Source: Escherichia phage dhabil. From it: 64,000 nucleotides of DNA. Location of the stretch: the sequence record MN850621.1, one strand, 5' to 3'. Every line of letters starts with the position of its first letter. Within the stretch, counting starts at the first letter, position 1. Positions 3,768 through 10,571 of the stretch are shown piece by piece. A program made the position numbers and the translations under genes. Below the pieces are notes generated by a model, which saw only the letters and a program-made list of their open reading frames with translations, made no database searches and was not told where the DNA came from.

Positions 3768-4727
3768 TTATTTTTCGAAAGGACGAATTAAATGTTGATT
3801 ACGCTTAAACCGGTTGATGTAGTCACTTTCACCTAGGGTCCTATACATATTCACTACAGCTTGGTAGTTTTCCCAGGCATACTCACGGAACCAACCTGAA
3901 GTGATTGAGGTGCACACTTTCTCAAGAGCCATATAGAAACTTGTGGCCGCTGGGATATTAAAGTCATTAGGAACCTGCGAACGCTCTAGAGCAAGTACAC
4001 ATGCTTCTTCATAAACCCCTGCCAGTTTAATAGCTTCAGGCAAAGCTTCAAACTTCTCACGAGAGGTCATGACTTCAGAACCATCTTTCATATAAAAGGT
4101 ATACGCTGGGCGTCCGGCTAATGCCACAGCTTCATGAATAGAGTCGTGGTCTAATGTATAGATGGTATCATTAAAGAACGATGATTTGTTTACATCTAAT
4201 TTAGGATGAGAATAGCTCAACGTTTCTTTCTGACGTTGCAGCATGATTTCTTGGAGCTCTTCATTCAAGGTTACACCTTTATTACGAAGGTATTTGATGT
4301 GGGACATCGTCTTCAAAAAGAAAGGGTTGTTCTTCAAATAACGATGGCTCATTTTGATGGCCAGACAGATATCAGGCGTGGCCCAATAGAAACCCGTCAT
4401 CCGATCTTTCTTAATATGTGTTTTAGCATAATTCAGAAGGCGGTAGCTTGAGGTGAAATCCTCATCTTGGAGTTCGCCGGTAATTTCACGTACGTTAGTC
4501 AAGGCGCGGACGATATAAGCTTCAAAATAGGTTTCTTTACCGTTGTGCATGCATTTAAAAGCCTGGACGTCAGGGTTGTCTACGTGTACATGGGCGCCAA
4601 ACATCTGTGCTTTAAAATTATTCCATGACCCCTGGTCGGCAATAAAATCCCAATCAGAATTTTCGATATACTTACTTTCAATCAGACCAGCGTGGTGCAG
4701 TGCACGAGAACCAATAACTAGCATCAT
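3768..4727 (-). CDS. hypothetical protein (319 aa)
   Basis: Long ORF with SD GAGGAAAATATT-ATG; no confident family assignment. Confidence 0.65.
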   Translation of the reverse strand: MMLVIGSRALHHAGLIESKYIENSDWDFIADQGSWNNFKAQMFGAHVHVDNPDVQAFKCMHNGKETYFEAYIVRALTNVREITGELQDEDFTSSYRLLNYAKTHIKKDRMTGFYWATPDICLAIKMSHRYLKNNPFFLKTMSHIKYLRNKGVTLNEELQEIMLQRQKETLSYSHPKLDVNKSSFFNDTIYTLDHDSIHEAVALAGRPAYTFYMKDGSEVMTSREKFEALPEAIKLAGVYEEACVLALERSQVPNDFNIPAATSFYMALEKVCTSITSGWFREYAWENYQAVVNMYRTLGESDYINRFKRNQHLIRPFEK

Positions 4728-4740
4728 AATATTTTCCTCA

Positions 4741-4908
4741 TTAATAAAGACGAGTTACTTCATATTTACCCAGTTCAGATTTTTTTGCTTCAATACGCGT
4801 TGCGGCTAGATTAGCAGCCTCTAGTGAAGAAAATTGGACCACTTGGGAAGTATTCTGCCTTACGCCACCTTGTGGGTGAGTAACAAAAACAATAAGAACA
4901 TTATACAT
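4741..4908 (-). CDS. hypothetical small protein (55 aa)
   Basis: Below the ORF-track size cutoff; found by manual translation (MYNVLIVFVTHPQGGVRQNTSQVVQFSSLEAANLAATRIEAKKSELGKYEVTRLY), SD TGAGGAAAATATT. Confidence 0.35.
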   Translation of the reverse strand: MYNVLIVFVTHPQGGVRQNTSQVVQFSSLEAANLAATRIEAKKSELGKYEVTRLY

Positions 4909-4929
4909 AATATTTTCCTCAGAGTAAAC

Positions 4930-5169
4930 TTAAATTTCAGCAACGTAATCGTTATGCAATTCCCACATATCATCAGAATTATTCTTAATGATAGGAATTA
5001 TCTCATTAGAGATTTCTTCGGCATAAGGGTCGTTGATACAGTGAGCGTCTTCAAAACGAACACCATAATCAGACTTCTTATAGGCAAAGCCATAAATCTT
5101 TTTAAACTTGGCACGACTAATGCGTACCGGCTCATCAGACTTATCAGACAGTGGAGAGTAATACCACAT
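4930..5169 (-). CDS. hypothetical small protein
   Basis: 79 aa ORF with SD AGGAG 6 nt upstream of ATG. Confidence 0.45.
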   Translation of the reverse strand: MWYYSPLSDKSDEPVRISRAKFKKIYGFAYKKSDYGVRFEDAHCINDPYAEEISNEIIPIIKNNSDDMWELHNDYVAEI

Positions 5170-5213: not shown

Positions 5214-5564
5214 TTAGAGTTGTACATCACTTCTGCAATATTCTAAAAATAATTTATCGCTGTCTACTGTATCCCAACGCCGCCAAGATGGATTCCAGAC
5301 CAGAGCGTTGTCACCACAATCATTGAGCTTAAAATGGTCGTAGTACATGGCTATGTGTCTAGTCTCGTCACCGGAGAACCCTAGTATAGGCTCGCCGTGG
5401 GTATGATACATATGATGGTGCATTGAGAGGTCGCACTTATAAAACATCTCACGTTTACCACGAACGAACAAGAAAGCTTGCCCATTCATATAGAATTCTT
5501 TATCTGTTTTCAAAAGATATTTGAATACTGAATCTTTGTGCATAAGTCCTCCTACCACATCCAT
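5214..5564 (-). CDS. hypothetical His/Cys-rich protein
   Basis: 116 aa ORF (…CDLSMHHHMYHTHGEP…); alternative start at 5543 has the stronger SD (AGGAGGA). Confidence 0.5.
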   Translation of the reverse strand: MDVVGGLMHKDSVFKYLLKTDKEFYMNGQAFLFVRGKREMFYKCDLSMHHHMYHTHGEPILGFSGDETRHIAMYYDHFKLNDCGDNALVWNPSWRRWDTVDSDKLFLEYCRSDVQL

Positions 5565-5573
5565 GTGGCTAAA

Positions 5574-5801
5574 TTATTTTCCTAACGAAATACGAGTAGG
5601 TTTTTTACCAAAGTATTCTTCATAAGAACCATCTAAACGACCTGCTTTAGACCGGCAATATGAATCATACTTTTTATAATAGGCCATCTCAGTATTATAA
5701 CGTGGGTGTCTATCAGCCATAATAATACTTAACGGCCAACCTTTGGCATAATCGCGAAGACCGTTTATTTTATGAATGTATCTTTTCTTTAATTTTAGCA
5801 T
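5574..5801 (-). CDS. hypothetical small protein
   Basis: 75 aa ORF in a tightly packed minus-strand operon. Confidence 0.4.
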   Translation of the reverse strand: MLKLKKRYIHKINGLRDYAKGWPLSIIMADRHPRYNTEMAYYKKYDSYCRSKAGRLDGSYEEYFGKKPTRISLGK

Positions 5802-6019
5802 GAGCTTGGGTACCAGATTTTACCATCGGAGCGAGCAACGAAGGTACGACCAGCTTCTTCACCATAACAAGAGCTATTCAGCCAATCTTCAAGACGAACT
5901 TCACCATCATAATCATCAAGCTCAACACCAAAATCCTGAGCAGAAGCCATATCTTTTACTTTCTTATACAGCGCAGCCAGTTCAAGAGCTGCTTTTTCTA
6001 ATTCATTAATATTAGACAT
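5795..6019 (-). CDS. small acidic protein, paralog 5 of the C-terminal W-x-x-SS-C family
   Basis: 74 aa, ends …KIWYPSSC; member of the tandem array. Confidence 0.55.
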   Translation of the reverse strand: MSNINELEKAALELAALYKKVKDMASAQDFGVELDDYDGEVRLEDWLNSSCYGEEAGRTFVARSDGKIWYPSSC

Positions 6020-6028
6020 TTTATCACC

Positions 6029-6241
6029 TTAGCAAGACATAGAGGATGTAAACCAGAAACCTTCACCATCTGGGATACCGTAATCATCACGGACCCATTC
6101 GTAATCATCATATTCCGGATTCTTTGGGGAAATGTATTGTCCACGGCCGGAAACATGGAACTCTTCACCTGTTTCGTCAGCCACGGACTGACCTTTACGT
6201 ACTAATTCACGGATTTGTTTTTCAATTTCATCAATAGTCAT
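6029..6241 (-). CDS. small acidic protein, paralog 4 of the C-terminal W-x-x-SS-x-x-C family
   Basis: 70 aa, ends …GFWFTSSMSC; preceded by ggtaataaaATG-type RBS. Confidence 0.55.
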   Translation of the reverse strand: MTIDEIEKQIRELVRKGQSVADETGEEFHVSGRGQYISPKNPEYDDYEWVRDDYGIPDGEGFWFTSSMSC

Positions 6242-6250
6242 TTTATTACC

Positions 6251-6448
6251 TTAGCATTCGTAAGAGGAGGACACCCAAGAGGTACCACTAATAGTAATAC
6301 AACCGTTATAAAGCGTTATATGTCGTTCTAAGTCACGAGCACCATCAATATAGATATCAGCTTCTTCGCGTTCTTCTTTACAAATTTGAATAACGTTTTC
6401 AATTGCCGCAGCGGCAGTTCGGATTGCACAATCTAATTCACGAGACAT
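6251..6448 (-). CDS. small acidic protein, paralog 3 of the C-terminal W-x-x-SS-x-x-C family
   Basis: 65 aa, ends …TSWVSSSYEC. Confidence 0.55.
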   Translation of the reverse strand: MSRELDCAIRTAAAAIENVIQICKEEREEADIYIDGARDLERHITLYNGCITISGTSWVSSSYEC

Positions 6449-6457
6449 AATATTTCC

Positions 6458-6739
6458 TTAACATTCAGAAGAAGAGGACACCCAACCGCCAGTTGCGAGG
6501 TCAGTTGTATAGTCATGAGTATTAACAATAGCCCATTCAGGATGACCATCTTCTTCCCAATGGGCAAGGTCAGCTTTCAAGGCGCCAGGAGAATAATAGT
6601 CACCGCCCATACCGCGAGCAGGGTATATATTAAAATGAGTCTCATATTTGTCTGCAATTTCCTCGGCACGACGAATAGCTTCATGAATTTCTTTTACTGC
6701 GGCCAGAAGCTCTGGATGGTTATGATTATCATTCATCAT
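6458..6739 (-). CDS. small acidic protein, paralog 2 of the C-terminal W-x-x-SS-x-x-C family
   Basis: 93 aa, ends …GGWVSSSSEC. Confidence 0.55.
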   Translation of the reverse strand: MMNDNHNHPELLAAVKEIHEAIRRAEEIADKYETHFNIYPARGMGGDYYSPGALKADLAHWEEDGHPEWAIVNTHDYTTDLATGGWVSSSSEC

Positions 6740-6748
6740 AGCTTTTCC

Positions 6749-7039
6749 TTAGCACATTGCCGAAGAGGAGACCCAGGCACCAACTGTAACGACGCCATTT
6801 TCAACTTCACCGCCATTGTTTTCAATTTCATCTTTAAACCACTGGGAGCATTCATAACCAACAGGGTAGTAGGTACGTCCTGAGCCATAATCACCTGTTC
6901 CGAATTGAATACCGTACTTATCGGCAATAGCTTCACATTTGGATTCGATGATATCTACTTTACCGAGCAGGGCATAGATAGCTTTTTCTGCAGATTTCTC
7001 GTCGTTGTATTCAGGGATTTCAATTTCAATTTTATTCAT
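6749..7039 (-). CDS. small acidic protein, paralog 1 of the C-terminal W-x-x-SS-x-x-C family
   Basis: 96 aa, ends …GAWVSSSAMC. Confidence 0.55.
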   Translation of the reverse strand: MNKIEIEIPEYNDEKSAEKAIYALLGKVDIIESKCEAIADKYGIQFGTGDYGSGRTYYPVGYECSQWFKDEIENNGGEVENGVVTVGAWVSSSAMC

Positions 7040-7389
7040 GATTTACATTCCTTAATAAAGGTTTCAAGGTCATTACGTTTGGTTTGTTTTACATACTCAT
7101 TATAATTAGCCATCTCTAAAGCATATCTCTTACGGATGGGAGCATTCAAAGCATTTGTATGGCAAATATCATACACGAGAGGGATAAAATAAGCCACGAC
7201 AGCCGGAGCAATTATCATATAGAAACCCATCTCAATAGGCATGACTCCTTCGATTGCAGCCATAACTGTGGTCATTACCAGACCAACCAGACCGCCGAGC
7301 ATACCTGTGACAATTCCCGTGAATAAGGAAATAGCAATATCATATTCAGCCAATTGATAAACATGCGATGAAAGACTAGGCCGTTCCAT
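7036..7389 (-). CDS. hypothetical membrane protein with C-terminal FIxECK motif
   Basis: Start at internal ATG (MERPSLS…) preceded by SD AGAGG; multiple hydrophobic helices; C-terminus …NDLETFIKECKS. Confidence 0.5.
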   Translation of the reverse strand: MERPSLSSHVYQLAEYDIAISLFTGIVTGMLGGLVGLVMTTVMAAIEGVMPIEMGFYMIIAPAVVAYFIPLVYDICHTNALNAPIRKRYALEMANYNEYVKQTKRNDLETFIKECKS

Positions 7390-7918
7390 TTTGGACCTCT
7401 TTAGCGTATTCACGGCATTCAGCAATAAAGCGATTAAGCTTCCGTTGTTGTTTACGACTTTCTAATGTGTACTCAGCAGTTAAGATACCAAGCTCGGCTT
7501 TATCATAATTTTTAATATCAGTGTAAGATGGTCGACGGTCGACCATTCCAAATACATCACCATTTTCTAAAGCCACATAGCATACTAAATGGTAATCATC
7601 GTCTGCCATATTAAGAAGCACGCAATCATTGCTCTCATTTAAAGAATATACTGAATAACGTAGTCCAGCGAATTCCACTCGTTGAATAGCCAGATTTACG
7701 TCAATAATTTCCAAAGCATCTTCAAAAGAAAGGTCTTCAGCTAAAGCAAAAATAAAAGGTAATTTGGTAGTATCGCCACGGCTAGATGTTCTGCTTAAGA
7801 AATCGTTTGAATAGCCTAGGTCTTGGCGAATTCTATAAAGAACTGAATTGGTTTCATGGGAAAGACCACTATTTTTAAACCAATCAATATTTGATATAAG
7901 GTTATCATATAAACTCAT
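7376..7918 (-). CDS. hypothetical protein with FIAECR motif near C-terminus
   Basis: 180 aa ORF, SD GGAGGAGAGGAGAATATT-ATG. Confidence 0.55.
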   Translation of the reverse strand: MSLYDNLISNIDWFKNSGLSHETNSVLYRIRQDLGYSNDFLSRTSSRGDTTKLPFIFALAEDLSFEDALEIIDVNLAIQRVEFAGLRYSVYSLNESNDCVLLNMADDDYHLVCYVALENGDVFGMVDRRPSYTDIKNYDKAELGILTAEYTLESRKQQRKLNRFIAECREYAKEVQNGTA

Positions 7919-8597: not shown

Positions 8598-8633
8598 GAG
8601 GACATTATACCCTGTCCTCTGAGGGTTGTAAAC
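8598..8633 (-). promoter_or_regulatory. strong sigma70-type early promoter with stem-loop over the -10
   Basis: Minus-strand -35 GTTTAC (8628-8633), -10 TATAAT (8604-8609), 18 nt spacer; inverted repeat gaggac/gtcctc flanks the -10. Confidence 0.55.
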
Positions 8634-10338: not shown

Positions 10339-10414
10339 TGGTCGAGACAGTAGGGATCGAACCTACGACCCAGGACTTAGAAGGTCCTTGCTCTTCCTTC
10401 TGAGCTATGCCTCG
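10339..10414 (-). tRNA. tRNA-Arg (anticodon UCU)
   Basis: Manually folded cloverleaf: acceptor cgaggca/tgtctcg, anticodon stem aggac/gtcct, loop cuUCUaa, T-arm gtagg-ttcgatc-cctac, encoded CCA. Confidence 0.8.
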
Positions 10415-10418
10415 TATT

Positions 10419-10493
10419 TGGCGGACATGCATGGATTCGAACCATGGACCAATTGATTAACAGTCAACTGCTCTACCACTGAGCTACACATCC
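10419..10493 (-). tRNA. tRNA-Asn (anticodon GUU)
   Basis: Cloverleaf: acceptor ggatgtg, D-arm gctc-agtggta-gagc, anticodon loop cuGUUaa, T-loop ttcgaat, encoded CCA. Confidence 0.75.
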
Positions 10494-10497
10494 AAAT

Positions 10498-10571
10498 TGG
10501 TGGCCCTGGGTGGAATCGAACCACCATCCAGCGATTATGAGTCGCTCGCTTGACCGTCCAGCTACAGGGCC
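10498..10571 (-). tRNA. tRNA with CAU anticodon (Met, or Ile if lysidine-modified as in T4)
   Basis: Cloverleaf: acceptor ggccctg, anticodon stem agcga/tcgct, loop cuCAUaa, T-arm ggtgg-ttcgatt-ccacc, encoded CCA. Confidence 0.8.

What the first reader, a model, noticed from the sequence alone, without database searches (positions are those of the whole stretch)
5795..7039. Tandem array of five small acidic paralogs ending in W-x-x-S-S-x-x-Cys
Five consecutive minus-strand ORFs (65-96 aa), each with its own ggtaataaaATG-type RBS, end in …GAWVSSSAMC, …GGWVSSSSEC, …TSWVSSSYEC, …GFWFTSSMSC and …KIWYPSSC. Serine codons vary synonymously (tcc, tct, tcg, agc, tca), so selection is on the peptide rather than the DNA. 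The N-terminal halves are helical and acidic. I do not recognise this family; a conserved terminal cysteine after a Ser-rich tail suggests a shared post-translational modification, metal ligand or docking motif. Small acidic early proteins in T4-like phages are often host-takeover or anti-restriction factors such as DNA mimics.
Basis: seen in the sequence. Interest (0 to 1): 0.75.

Follow-up and report, generated by a model that had tools for sequence, protein, structure and literature searches.

The report
Cys-tailed small proteins partnered with nucleotidyltransferase
The five small acidic genes are real members of a large, unstudied phage protein family whose invariant Trp-x-x-Ser-Ser-(x-x)-Cys end almost always sits just upstream of one particular nucleotide-transferring enzyme, which points to an undescribed two-part phage system.

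Summary
Five same-frame minus-strand ORFs (96, 93, 65, 70 and 74 aa; pI 4.3-4.8) each end in W-x-x-S-S-(x-x)-Cys-stop. Shuffled sequence gives 0.04 such ORFs. All five are under purifying selection (dN/dS 0.02-0.5). The window is Escherichia phage CLB_P2, a T4-like Dhakavirus.

The small genes lie upstream of a 319-aa protein (window 3768-4727, DUF7277+DUF7275):
- 78-81 of 84 loci fetched by the enzyme carry the small genes.
- 35 of 35 loci fetched by the small protein carry the enzyme.
- The loci span T4-like, ~150-kb and jumbo phages.

My best reading is that the tail is the handle by which these proteins engage that enzyme, most likely as serine acceptors for a nucleotide. An antitoxin-like inhibitor role is the main rival. 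The DNA-mimic idea has no support beyond acidity.

The parts
6749..7039 (-). Paralog 1, 96 aa, subtype A (…GDYGSGRTYYP…GAWVSSSAMC). This is the ancestral type, found from E. coli to Aeromonas phages.
   Evidence: ORF. PHROG 899 E 1e-22. tblastn finds it in 366 phage records. AF2 pLDDT 90.9. dN/dS about 0.1.
6458..6739 (-). Paralog 2, 93 aa (…ARGMGGDYYSPG…GGWVSSSSEC)
   Evidence: PHROG 899, E 1e-18. dN/dS about 0.25.
6251..6448 (-). Paralog 3, 65 aa, a shortened form lacking the Gly-rich loop (…TSWVSSSYEC)
   Evidence: phrog_4882, E 2e-36. dN/dS about 0.05. Matches the family HMM.
6029..6241 (-). Paralog 4, 70 aa (…GFWFTSSMSC). It is the fastest-evolving copy.
   Evidence: PHROG 899, E 3e-14. 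dN/dS 0.1-0.5.
5795..6019 (-). Paralog 5, 74 aa, subtype B. It has an internal DWLNSSCYGEE motif plus the terminal WYPSSC.
   Evidence: Subtype B is conserved as far as the Aeromonas phages CC2 and 60AhydR15PP.
3768..4727 (-). Partner enzyme, 319 aa. The N-terminal domain is a Pol-beta-type nucleotidyltransferase (DUF7277; G6 S7 D25 D27 E69 invariant). The C-terminal domain is a conserved helical domain (DUF7275; K125, H128, H194, D195, H198, E240, E241, E248 and R249 conserved even in distant homologs).
7099..7123 (-). T4-type middle-promoter-like site (MotA box TGCTTTA, 12 nt, TATAAT) about 60 nt upstream of the ATG of paralog 1
   Evidence: 12 matches in the window against 2.9 expected. This is a consensus match only.
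8604..8632 (-). Strong sigma-70/early-promoter-like site (TTTACA-17-TATAAT, 11 of 12) at the head of the e.6-like to array transcription unit
   Evidence: This is a consensus match only.
4900..4928 (-). Sigma-70-like site (TTTACT-17-TATAAT) upstream of the enzyme gene
   Evidence: This is a consensus match only.

Best explanation
The five ORFs and the 319-aa gene at 3768-4727 form one functional module, found in many unrelated large phages. It consists of a MenT-like nucleotidyltransferase plus one to seven small acidic alpha/beta proteins. These small proteins have a divergent body and a shared end, W-x-x-S-S-(x-x)-Cys-COOH.

I propose that this end is the element the enzyme recognises. The most likely mechanism is that the near-invariant serine at W+3 (or W+4) is presented to the enzyme's active site and receives a nucleotide as a phosphodiester (Ser-O-NMP, possibly extended). 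The Trp and the terminal Cys would act as positioning or metal-contacting determinants. The modified small proteins would then act during early or middle infection, each paralog on its own target.

What is shown: the genes are real, the motif is conserved, the gene linkage is near-obligate, the enzyme has an intact nucleotidyltransferase catalytic set, and its fold is MenT-like.

What is inferred: physical contact between the two components, the serine as acceptor, and any downstream role.
For: **Linkage in both directions.**
- Of 84 loci retrieved through the enzyme, 81 carry same-strand upstream ORFs with the tail (three of these are spurious intragenic matches, so 78 is the firmer count). 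77 carry sequence-homologous small genes; of 162 such ORFs, 152 end in Cys.
- All 35 loci retrieved through the subtype-B motif carry the enzyme 0-2.3 kb downstream.
- Two divergent metagenomic members also sit directly upstream of a DUF7275 gene.

**Only these two families travel together.** The module sits between e.3 and e.2 in E. coli T4-likes, between nrdD and nrdC in an Aeromonas phage, and next to rnlA in CC2. It also occurs in ~150-kb and 350-370-kb phages. No third gene family is conserved with it.

**The enzyme looks active.** G6, S7, D25, D27 and E69 are invariant.

**Motif statistics favour a hydroxyl acceptor.** Ser at W+3 is present in 378 of 380 members and Ser at W+4 in 349 of 380. 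All six Ser codons are used.

**Several divergent paralogs share one handle** (1-7 per locus). This fits several substrates for one enzyme better than a single stoichiometric inhibitor.

**Precedents.** The MntA nucleotidyltransferase poly-adenylylates its partner HepT, GlnD uridylylates PII, and CitX/MdcG attach a nucleotide-derived group to a Ser of small acidic carrier proteins. These are recalled from established knowledge and were not tested here.
Against: - No direct evidence of contact exists. I could not run complex prediction.
- The closest structural relatives (MenT1, MenT3, MenT4) modify tRNA 3' ends, not proteins (PMC10435456).
- RNA ligase, phosphoesterase and tRNA genes recur nearby, so the true substrate may be RNA.
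- The model places the Trp in a beta-strand, so part of the motif's conservation may be structural.
- About five of the 84 enzyme loci lack the small genes.
- Distant short DUF7275 enzymes pair with a different small family.
- A few members carry one or two residues after the Cys.
Confidence: 0.38

Rival explanations
1. Antitoxin-like regulators. The enzyme is a MenT-type tRNA-modifying nucleotidyltransferase, used for host shut-off or tRNA repair. The small acidic proteins bind it non-covalently and block or time its activity. The long N-terminal helix and the tail would occupy the electropositive active-site cleft as a pseudo-substrate.
For: - MenT1's antitoxin MenA1 is a 68-aa protein encoded just upstream. 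Its long central helix lies across the active site (PMC10435456).
- The phage proteins are likewise small and acidic, encoded upstream on the same strand, and begin with a roughly 30-residue helix.
Against: - A lytic phage has no obvious need for toxin-antitoxin addiction.
- One to seven divergent paralogs per single enzyme is unusual for antitoxins.
- A near-invariant Ser-Ser plus terminal Cys is more than simple occlusion requires.
- There is no sequence relation to MenA1, and the enzyme gives no DUF1814/AbiEii Pfam hit.
Confidence: 0.25
2. Specificity adaptors or ligand carriers. Each paralog docks on the enzyme through the common tail and either brings a different target (a tRNA or host protein) or binds the enzyme's nucleotide product. 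The Gly-rich YGxGG loop and the Ser-rich helix cap would form a phosphate-binding pocket, sponge-like.
For: - The bodies diverge while the handle stays invariant.
- Aromatic and Gly-rich positions are conserved (Y-G-x-G-G-x-Y-Y, W), together with serines at the start of a helix.
- One enzyme serves many small proteins.
Against: - Paralogs 3 and 5 lack the Gly-rich loop yet keep the tail.
- A strongly acidic protein is not an obvious nucleotide or RNA binder.
- No fold similarity was found to solved structures, which would include known sponge proteins if represented.
Confidence: 0.15
3. One reading: stand-alone host-takeover or anti-restriction proteins (DNA mimics). The C-terminal motif addresses a host factor, and proximity to the enzyme is incidental synteny.
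For: - They are acidic (pI 4.3-4.8).
- The promoter context looks early or middle.
- They lie in a hyperplastic region of T4-like genomes that is rich in accessory genes.
Against: - Linkage to the enzyme survives relocation to different genomic sites and different phage families.
- No structural similarity to any solved protein was found.
- The hosts span Escherichia, Aeromonas, Klebsiella, Pseudomonas and unknown jumbo-phage hosts, so a single conserved host target for the tail is less likely than the co-encoded enzyme.
Confidence: 0.07
4. RiPP-like maturation. The enzyme activates a serine by O-nucleotidylylation. Elimination gives dehydroalanine, and the terminal Cys adds to it, forming a lanthionine-type C-terminal ring. 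Alternatively, a Trp-Cys crosslink forms.
For: - Tandem arrays of precursor-like paralogs share a conserved Ser/Cys end next to a putative modifying enzyme.
- The S-x-x-C spacing in subtype A matches common lanthionine ring sizes (general knowledge).
Against: - The proteins are confidently folded domains, not leader-plus-core peptides.
- No known RiPP enzyme family lies nearby.
- The S-S-C spacing of subtype B is poor for ring closure.
- I know of no precedent for nucleotidylylation-driven dehydration.
Confidence: 0.05

Closest known systems
MenAT1 toxin-antitoxin (MenT1 nucleotidyltransferase + 68-aa MenA1), and the wider MenT/AbiEii (DUF1814) family
   Different: The enzyme gives no DUF1814/AbiEii Pfam match. 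It has a larger, differently conserved C-terminal domain (DUF7275). The partners are unrelated to MenA1, come in 1-7 copies, and carry the W-x-x-S-S-(x-x)-C end. The module is encoded by lytic phages, not bacterial chromosomes.
HepT-MntA (HEPN-MNT) type VII toxin-antitoxin, GlnD-PII and CitX-CitD (from general knowledge)
   Same: Each is a Pol-beta-fold nucleotidyltransferase that covalently attaches a nucleotide, or a nucleotide-derived group, to a hydroxyl side chain of a small partner protein encoded beside it. This is the mechanism I favour here.
   Different: The partners here are not HEPN, PII or acyl-carrier folds (no Pfam hit and no solved structural relative). The candidate acceptor is a serine near the C-terminus. 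Nothing has been shown biochemically.
Phage DNA-mimic anti-restriction proteins (Ocr, ArdA, Arn)
   Same: They are small, very acidic phage proteins expressed early.
RlaP (PF10127), the RNA-ligase-associated Pol-beta nucleotidyltransferase of phages
   Same: It is a phage-borne Pol-beta-type nucleotidyltransferase often found near RNA ligase or RNA-repair genes. RNA ligase genes lie near the DUF7275 gene in CC2, Limpid, DSS3_VP1 and one metagenomic contig.
   Different: It is a different Pfam family, with no PF10127 hit. No Cys-tailed partner proteins are described for RlaP.
PHROG 899 / PHROG 4882 and Pfam DUF7277/DUF7275
   Same: The window proteins are members by HMM score.
   Different: These entries are unannotated sequence clusters. 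I found no description of the motif or the linkage in the searchable literature.

Membership tests
PHROG 899 / 4882 (small proteins) | Significant match to the family HMM | tested here: met
   E-values of 1e-22, 1e-18, 3e-14 and 4e-10 to phrog_899, and 2e-36 to phrog_4882.
Cys-tailed family as defined in this report | Protein ends in W-x-x-S-[SN]-(x-x)-C, with Cys last or next to last | tested here: met
   All five ORFs do. Among 380 family members, Ser at W+3 is present in 378 and Cys is terminal in about 97%.
Cys-tailed family as defined in this report | Encoded upstream of, and on the same strand as, a DUF7275 nucleotidyltransferase | tested here: met
   The enzyme lies at window 3768-4727, 1.07 kb downstream of paralog 5. 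General linkage is shown.
MenAT / AbiE nucleotidyltransferase toxin-antitoxin | Toxin belongs to the DUF1814/AbiEii sequence family | tested here: not met
   No PF08843 or other nucleotidyltransferase Pfam hit appears, even at E<=5, across 38 homologs.
MenAT / AbiE nucleotidyltransferase toxin-antitoxin | MenT-like bilobed nucleotidyltransferase fold with a GS/DxD core | tested here: met
MenAT / AbiE nucleotidyltransferase toxin-antitoxin | Enzyme is growth-toxic by adding nucleotides to tRNA 3' ends, and the upstream gene neutralises it | not testable with these tools
   This needs expression and tRNA assays.
DNA-mimic anti-restriction proteins (Ocr/ArdA/Arn) | Strong net negative charge | tested here: met
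   pI 4.3-4.8 with charge -6 to -11.
DNA-mimic anti-restriction proteins (Ocr/ArdA/Arn) | Fold or sequence related to a known mimic | tested here: not met
DNA-mimic anti-restriction proteins (Ocr/ArdA/Arn) | Binds and inhibits a restriction or defence nuclease | not testable with these tools
   This needs pull-downs or plating assays.
RiPP precursor peptides | Unstructured leader-plus-core peptide next to a known RiPP maturase (LanB/M/KC, YcaO, radical SAM and similar) | tested here: not met
   The model is a folded alpha/beta domain with pLDDT 90.9. No such Pfam families occur in the window genes or in 103 neighbouring ORFs.
HEPN-MNT (type VII toxin-antitoxin) | Partner of the nucleotidyltransferase is a HEPN RNase (Rx4-6H) | tested here: not met
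   No HEPN or other Pfam family is found in 68 small proteins.
GlnD-like bifunctional nucleotidyltransferase/HD enzymes | Second domain is an HD phosphohydrolase | tested here: inconclusive

The most novel reading that the evidence does not exclude
This would be a phage-specific protein-nucleotide conjugation system. A MenT-like nucleotidyltransferase has been re-targeted from tRNA 3'-OH to a serine hydroxyl presented by a dedicated W-x-x-S-S-(x-x)-Cys module. It writes a nucleotide, or a short nucleotide chain, onto a diversifying family of small acidic effector proteins with a new fold. These conjugates would then act as decoys or inhibitors of host RNA- or nucleotide-based defences.
Probability: 0.3. 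Interest if true: 0.85.

Novelty: new variant of a known kind. Interest (0 to 1): 0.7.

Why it matters
**Scale.** The small-protein family has at least 253 clusters at 50% identity. The enzyme family has 2,277 database proteins and appears in 733 of 50,697 deposited phage genomes. Hosts include Escherichia, Klebsiella, Aeromonas, Acinetobacter and Pseudomonas phages, and some of these phage groups include therapeutic candidates. No function, paper or structure is attached to either family.

**What the linkage gives.** It turns five anonymous ORFs into a testable two-component hypothesis with clear residues to mutate: Ser at W+3 and W+4, the terminal Cys, and the enzyme's D25 and D27.

**If the serine-nucleotidylylation reading holds**, it would add a new substrate class to the MenT/AbiEii enzyme superfamily and a new kind of phage post-translational chemistry.

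**If the inhibitor reading holds**, it would show toxin-antitoxin-like logic operating inside lytic phages.

Either result would annotate thousands of phage genes.

Tried and rejected
- **Sequence annotation of the small proteins.** Pfam, NCBIfam, PADLOC and PDB sequence searches found nothing beyond noise.
- **Word-indexed homolog searches.** Using the paralog alignment and a 68-sequence alignment returned mostly close relatives. The exhaustive HMMER search was needed.
- **Locus retrieval.** The search for related loci with the broad small-protein alignment failed because no conserved stretch was long enough. A subtype-B alignment worked.
- **AFDB50 fold search.** The library was unavailable.
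- **RlaP identity for the enzyme.** Rejected, because RlaP is PF10127 and does not match.
- **Link to arabinosyl/pentosyl-cytosine DNA modification.** I considered this because RB69-like phages and Thanatos carry the module. I rejected it because the implicated genes are different loci, and the module also occurs in unrelated phages.
- **Toxicity-screen literature for a related Yersinia phage.** The toxic hits are neighbouring membrane proteins, and the family members were not among the genes I could identify.
- **A third conserved component of the module.** None was found by ORF clustering or by a Pfam scan of 103 neighbouring ORFs.
- **A Cys-Cys link between enzyme and partner.** Enzyme C272 tracks partner presence, but the pattern is phylogenetically confounded, and C243 is not conserved.
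- **Stop-codon read-through polyprotein.** I considered this because all five ORFs share a frame. I judged it unlikely: the stops are TAA, each ORF has its own ribosome-binding site and ATG, and the spacing is not conserved outside Dhaka/Mosigvirus.
Full report
**What is there.** The window is 99.9% identical to Escherichia phage CLB_P2, a T4-like Dhakavirus of the JS98 group. On the minus strand between 7039 and 5795 lie five ORFs of 96, 93, 65, 70 and 74 aa. They end in GAWVSSSAMC, GGWVSSSSEC, TSWVSSSYEC, GFWFTSSMSC and KIWYPSSC. All five share one reading frame. Each is separated from the next by TAA plus exactly nine bases, and the stop codon overlaps a Shine-Dalgarno-like AAGG.

A regular expression for the tail at an ORF end finds only these five in all six frames of the 64-kb window. 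Shuffled sequence gives 0.04 hits. The proteins are acidic, with pI 4.3-4.8 and charge -6 to -11. The fifth ORF also carries an internal copy of the motif (DWLNSSCYGEE).

**They are real genes under selection on the peptide.** Against orthologs in ten related phages, dN/dS is about 0.1 for paralog 1, 0.25 for paralog 2, 0.05 for paralog 3, 0.1-0.5 for paralog 4 and 0.1 for paralog 5. Across 194 family members the conserved serines use all six Ser codons, and the Cys uses both TGC and TGT. This rules out a DNA- or RNA-level explanation for the motif.

Promoter-like sites fit early and middle expression. There is a strong sigma-70-like site at 8632-8604. A T4-type MotA-box site (TGCTTTA-N12-TATAAT) lies at 7123-7099, about 60 nt upstream of the first ATG. 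These are consensus matches only.

**How big and how conserved the family is.** Four paralogs match PHROG 899 and the third matches PHROG 4882, both labelled 'unknown function'. No match exists in Pfam, NCBIfam or PADLOC, and no solved structure matches by sequence. tblastn with paralog 1 finds 366 phage records from Escherichia, Aeromonas, Enterobacter, Klebsiella, Serratia and other hosts.

An exhaustive HMMER search of 1.84 billion representative proteins gave 253 clusters at E<=0.001. Of the 146 newly listed hits, 135 end in Cys and 132 fit the motif. Eight more carry only one or two residues after the Cys.

Pooling 380 distinct members and anchoring on the last Trp gives these counts:
- Ser at W+3: 378 of 380
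- Ser at W+4: 349 of 380
- Cys at W+7: 314
- Cys at W+5: 53

Two old subtypes exist. Subtype A has …GDYGSGRTYYP…GxWxSSSxxC. Subtype B has …DWLSSSCYGEG…WxxSSC. Both occur even in distant Aeromonas phages.

**The key finding is an obligate partner enzyme.** In four distant phages the small genes sit directly upstream of a gene of about 300-320 aa, even though the genomic neighbourhood differs:
- between e.3 and e.2 homologs in Mosigvirus
- near the tRNA genes in Karamvirus
- between nrdD and nrdC in Aeromonas phage 60AhydR15PP
- beside rnlA in CC2

In the window this gene is 3768-4727 (319 aa, Pfam DUF7277+DUF7275).

I tested the linkage in both directions:
- Eighty viral contigs fetched by homology to the enzyme, plus the four loci above, gave 84 loci. 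They include ~150-kb phages and 350-370-kb jumbo phages. Of these, 81 have same-strand upstream ORFs with the tail; three of those are spurious intragenic matches, so 78 is the firmer count. 77 contain BLAST-clustered family members.
- Thirty-five contigs fetched by the subtype-B motif all carry the enzyme 0-2.3 kb downstream.
- Two divergent metagenomic members looked up independently are also immediately upstream of a DUF7275 gene.

Copy number ranges from one to seven per locus. No third gene family is conserved with the pair. T4 lacks the whole block at the syntenic e.3/e.2 junction.

**What the enzyme is.** It has 2,277 database relatives and occurs in 733 phage records. G6, S7, D25, D27 and E69 are invariant, which is the Pol-beta nucleotidyltransferase signature. 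So are many C-terminal residues. K125, H128, H194, D195, H198, E240, E241, E248 and R249 hold even in homologs of 26-35% identity.

At the sequence level the phage enzyme is not a DUF1814/AbiEii member, and it is not RlaP.

**Interpretation.** The evidence strongly supports (about 0.8) that the five ORFs are partners of this enzyme and that the shared end is the partnership element. Which kind of partnership is inference.

I favour acceptor substrates, meaning serine O-nucleotidylylation (0.38). My reasons are:
- a hydroxyl residue is the most invariant feature
- the enzyme retains a full catalytic set
- several divergent bodies share one handle
- nucleotidyltransferases that modify small neighbouring proteins are well known (MntA-HepT, GlnD-PII, CitX-CitD; general knowledge)

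The main rival is an antitoxin-like, non-covalent inhibitor modelled on MenA1 (0.25). After that come adaptor or ligand-carrier roles (0.15), a stand-alone DNA mimic (0.07) and RiPP-like Ser/Cys crosslinking (0.05).

**Evidence against my preferred reading.**
- Every characterised close structural relative acts on tRNA.
- RNA ligase, phosphoesterase and tRNA genes recur near the module.
- The Trp appears to be part of the fold.
- About five enzyme loci lack the small genes.
- Short DUF7275 enzymes in KVP40-like, Streptomyces and Gordonia phages pair with a different ~100-aa family instead.

**Novelty.** Full-text searches for the Pfam and PHROG identifiers, for the RB69 and phage 31 ORF names, and for relevant keyword combinations found no description of the motif, the family or the linkage. 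The components exist only as unannotated database clusters. I classify it as a new variant of a known kind: a nucleotidyltransferase with a small partner protein. It has a new partner fold and motif, and it sits in lytic phages.

Noticed in passing
window 5795-7039: All five ORFs share one reading frame, with TGY-TAA followed by exactly 9 nt before each ATG. The same 9-nt spacer occurs in Mosigvirus PhAPEC2 (L002 4294/4304 and 4576/4586). This is consistent with tandem duplication and translational coupling. Read-through is unlikely.
   Followed up: partly
L124 3327-3620; L121 4630-4965; L122 4600-4887: Short (~250 aa) DUF7275 enzymes in KVP40-like phi-pp2, Streptomyces phage Limpid and Gordonia phage ClubL lack Cys-tailed neighbours. 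They sit beside another conserved ~100-aa family (…YFKTxYYxS…VEVxPxxxTITxYV) that has no Pfam match. It may be an alternative partner, or a split-off part of the reduced N-terminal domain.
   Followed up: partly
L128 2395-4099: A metagenomic contig carries seven tandem small genes upstream of its DUF7275 gene. Five of them keep the terminal Cys motif. P0189 (155 aa) is a two-domain fusion of the family.
   Followed up: partly
L005 1-615; L121 2064-2723; L123 1265-2810; L125 4422-4868, 7083-7670 and 9371-10327; L128 5449-6012 and 6554-7309: RNA ligase, metallophosphoesterase, ART-PolyVal and GatB/YqeY-domain genes recur within a few kb of the module in non-T4 phages. This hints that the enzyme belongs to an RNA or tRNA repair or conflict neighbourhood.
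   Followed up: partly
window 3768-4727 (residue C272 of the enzyme): Enzyme Cys272 is Cys in 81 of 82 loci that have Cys-tailed partners. It is Ile in three distant partner-less homologs. C243 varies (C, Y or M). This could hint at thiol or metal chemistry between enzyme and partner, but the pattern is confounded by phylogeny.
   Followed up: partly
window 7036-7425 and 7376-7918; L129 7652-9270: The genes just upstream of the array are homologs of T4 e.3/e.4 (membrane protein) and e.5. In T4, e.4-e.3-e.2-nudE are contiguous. The roughly 4-kb block from the five small genes through the enzyme is therefore an insertion relative to T4.
   Followed up: yes
window 4930-5169, 5214-5564, 5574-5801, 4741-4908: Four small ORFs lie between the array and the enzyme (PHROGs 7065 and 9796, and a 79-aa protein shared with Mosigvirus). 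They are lineage-specific fillers and are not conserved with the module elsewhere. Their function is unknown.
   Followed up: partly
window 10339-10571: Three phage tRNA genes (Arg-TCT, Asn-GTT, Met-CAT) lie 3.3 kb upstream of the array on the same strand.
   Followed up: no
A3 member scan: One family member gave a weak hit to the Nif11 RiPP-leader domain (E 0.003), and another to the Lant_dehydr_N domain (E 0.017). Each is a single, sub-threshold hit, most likely chance.
   Followed up: no
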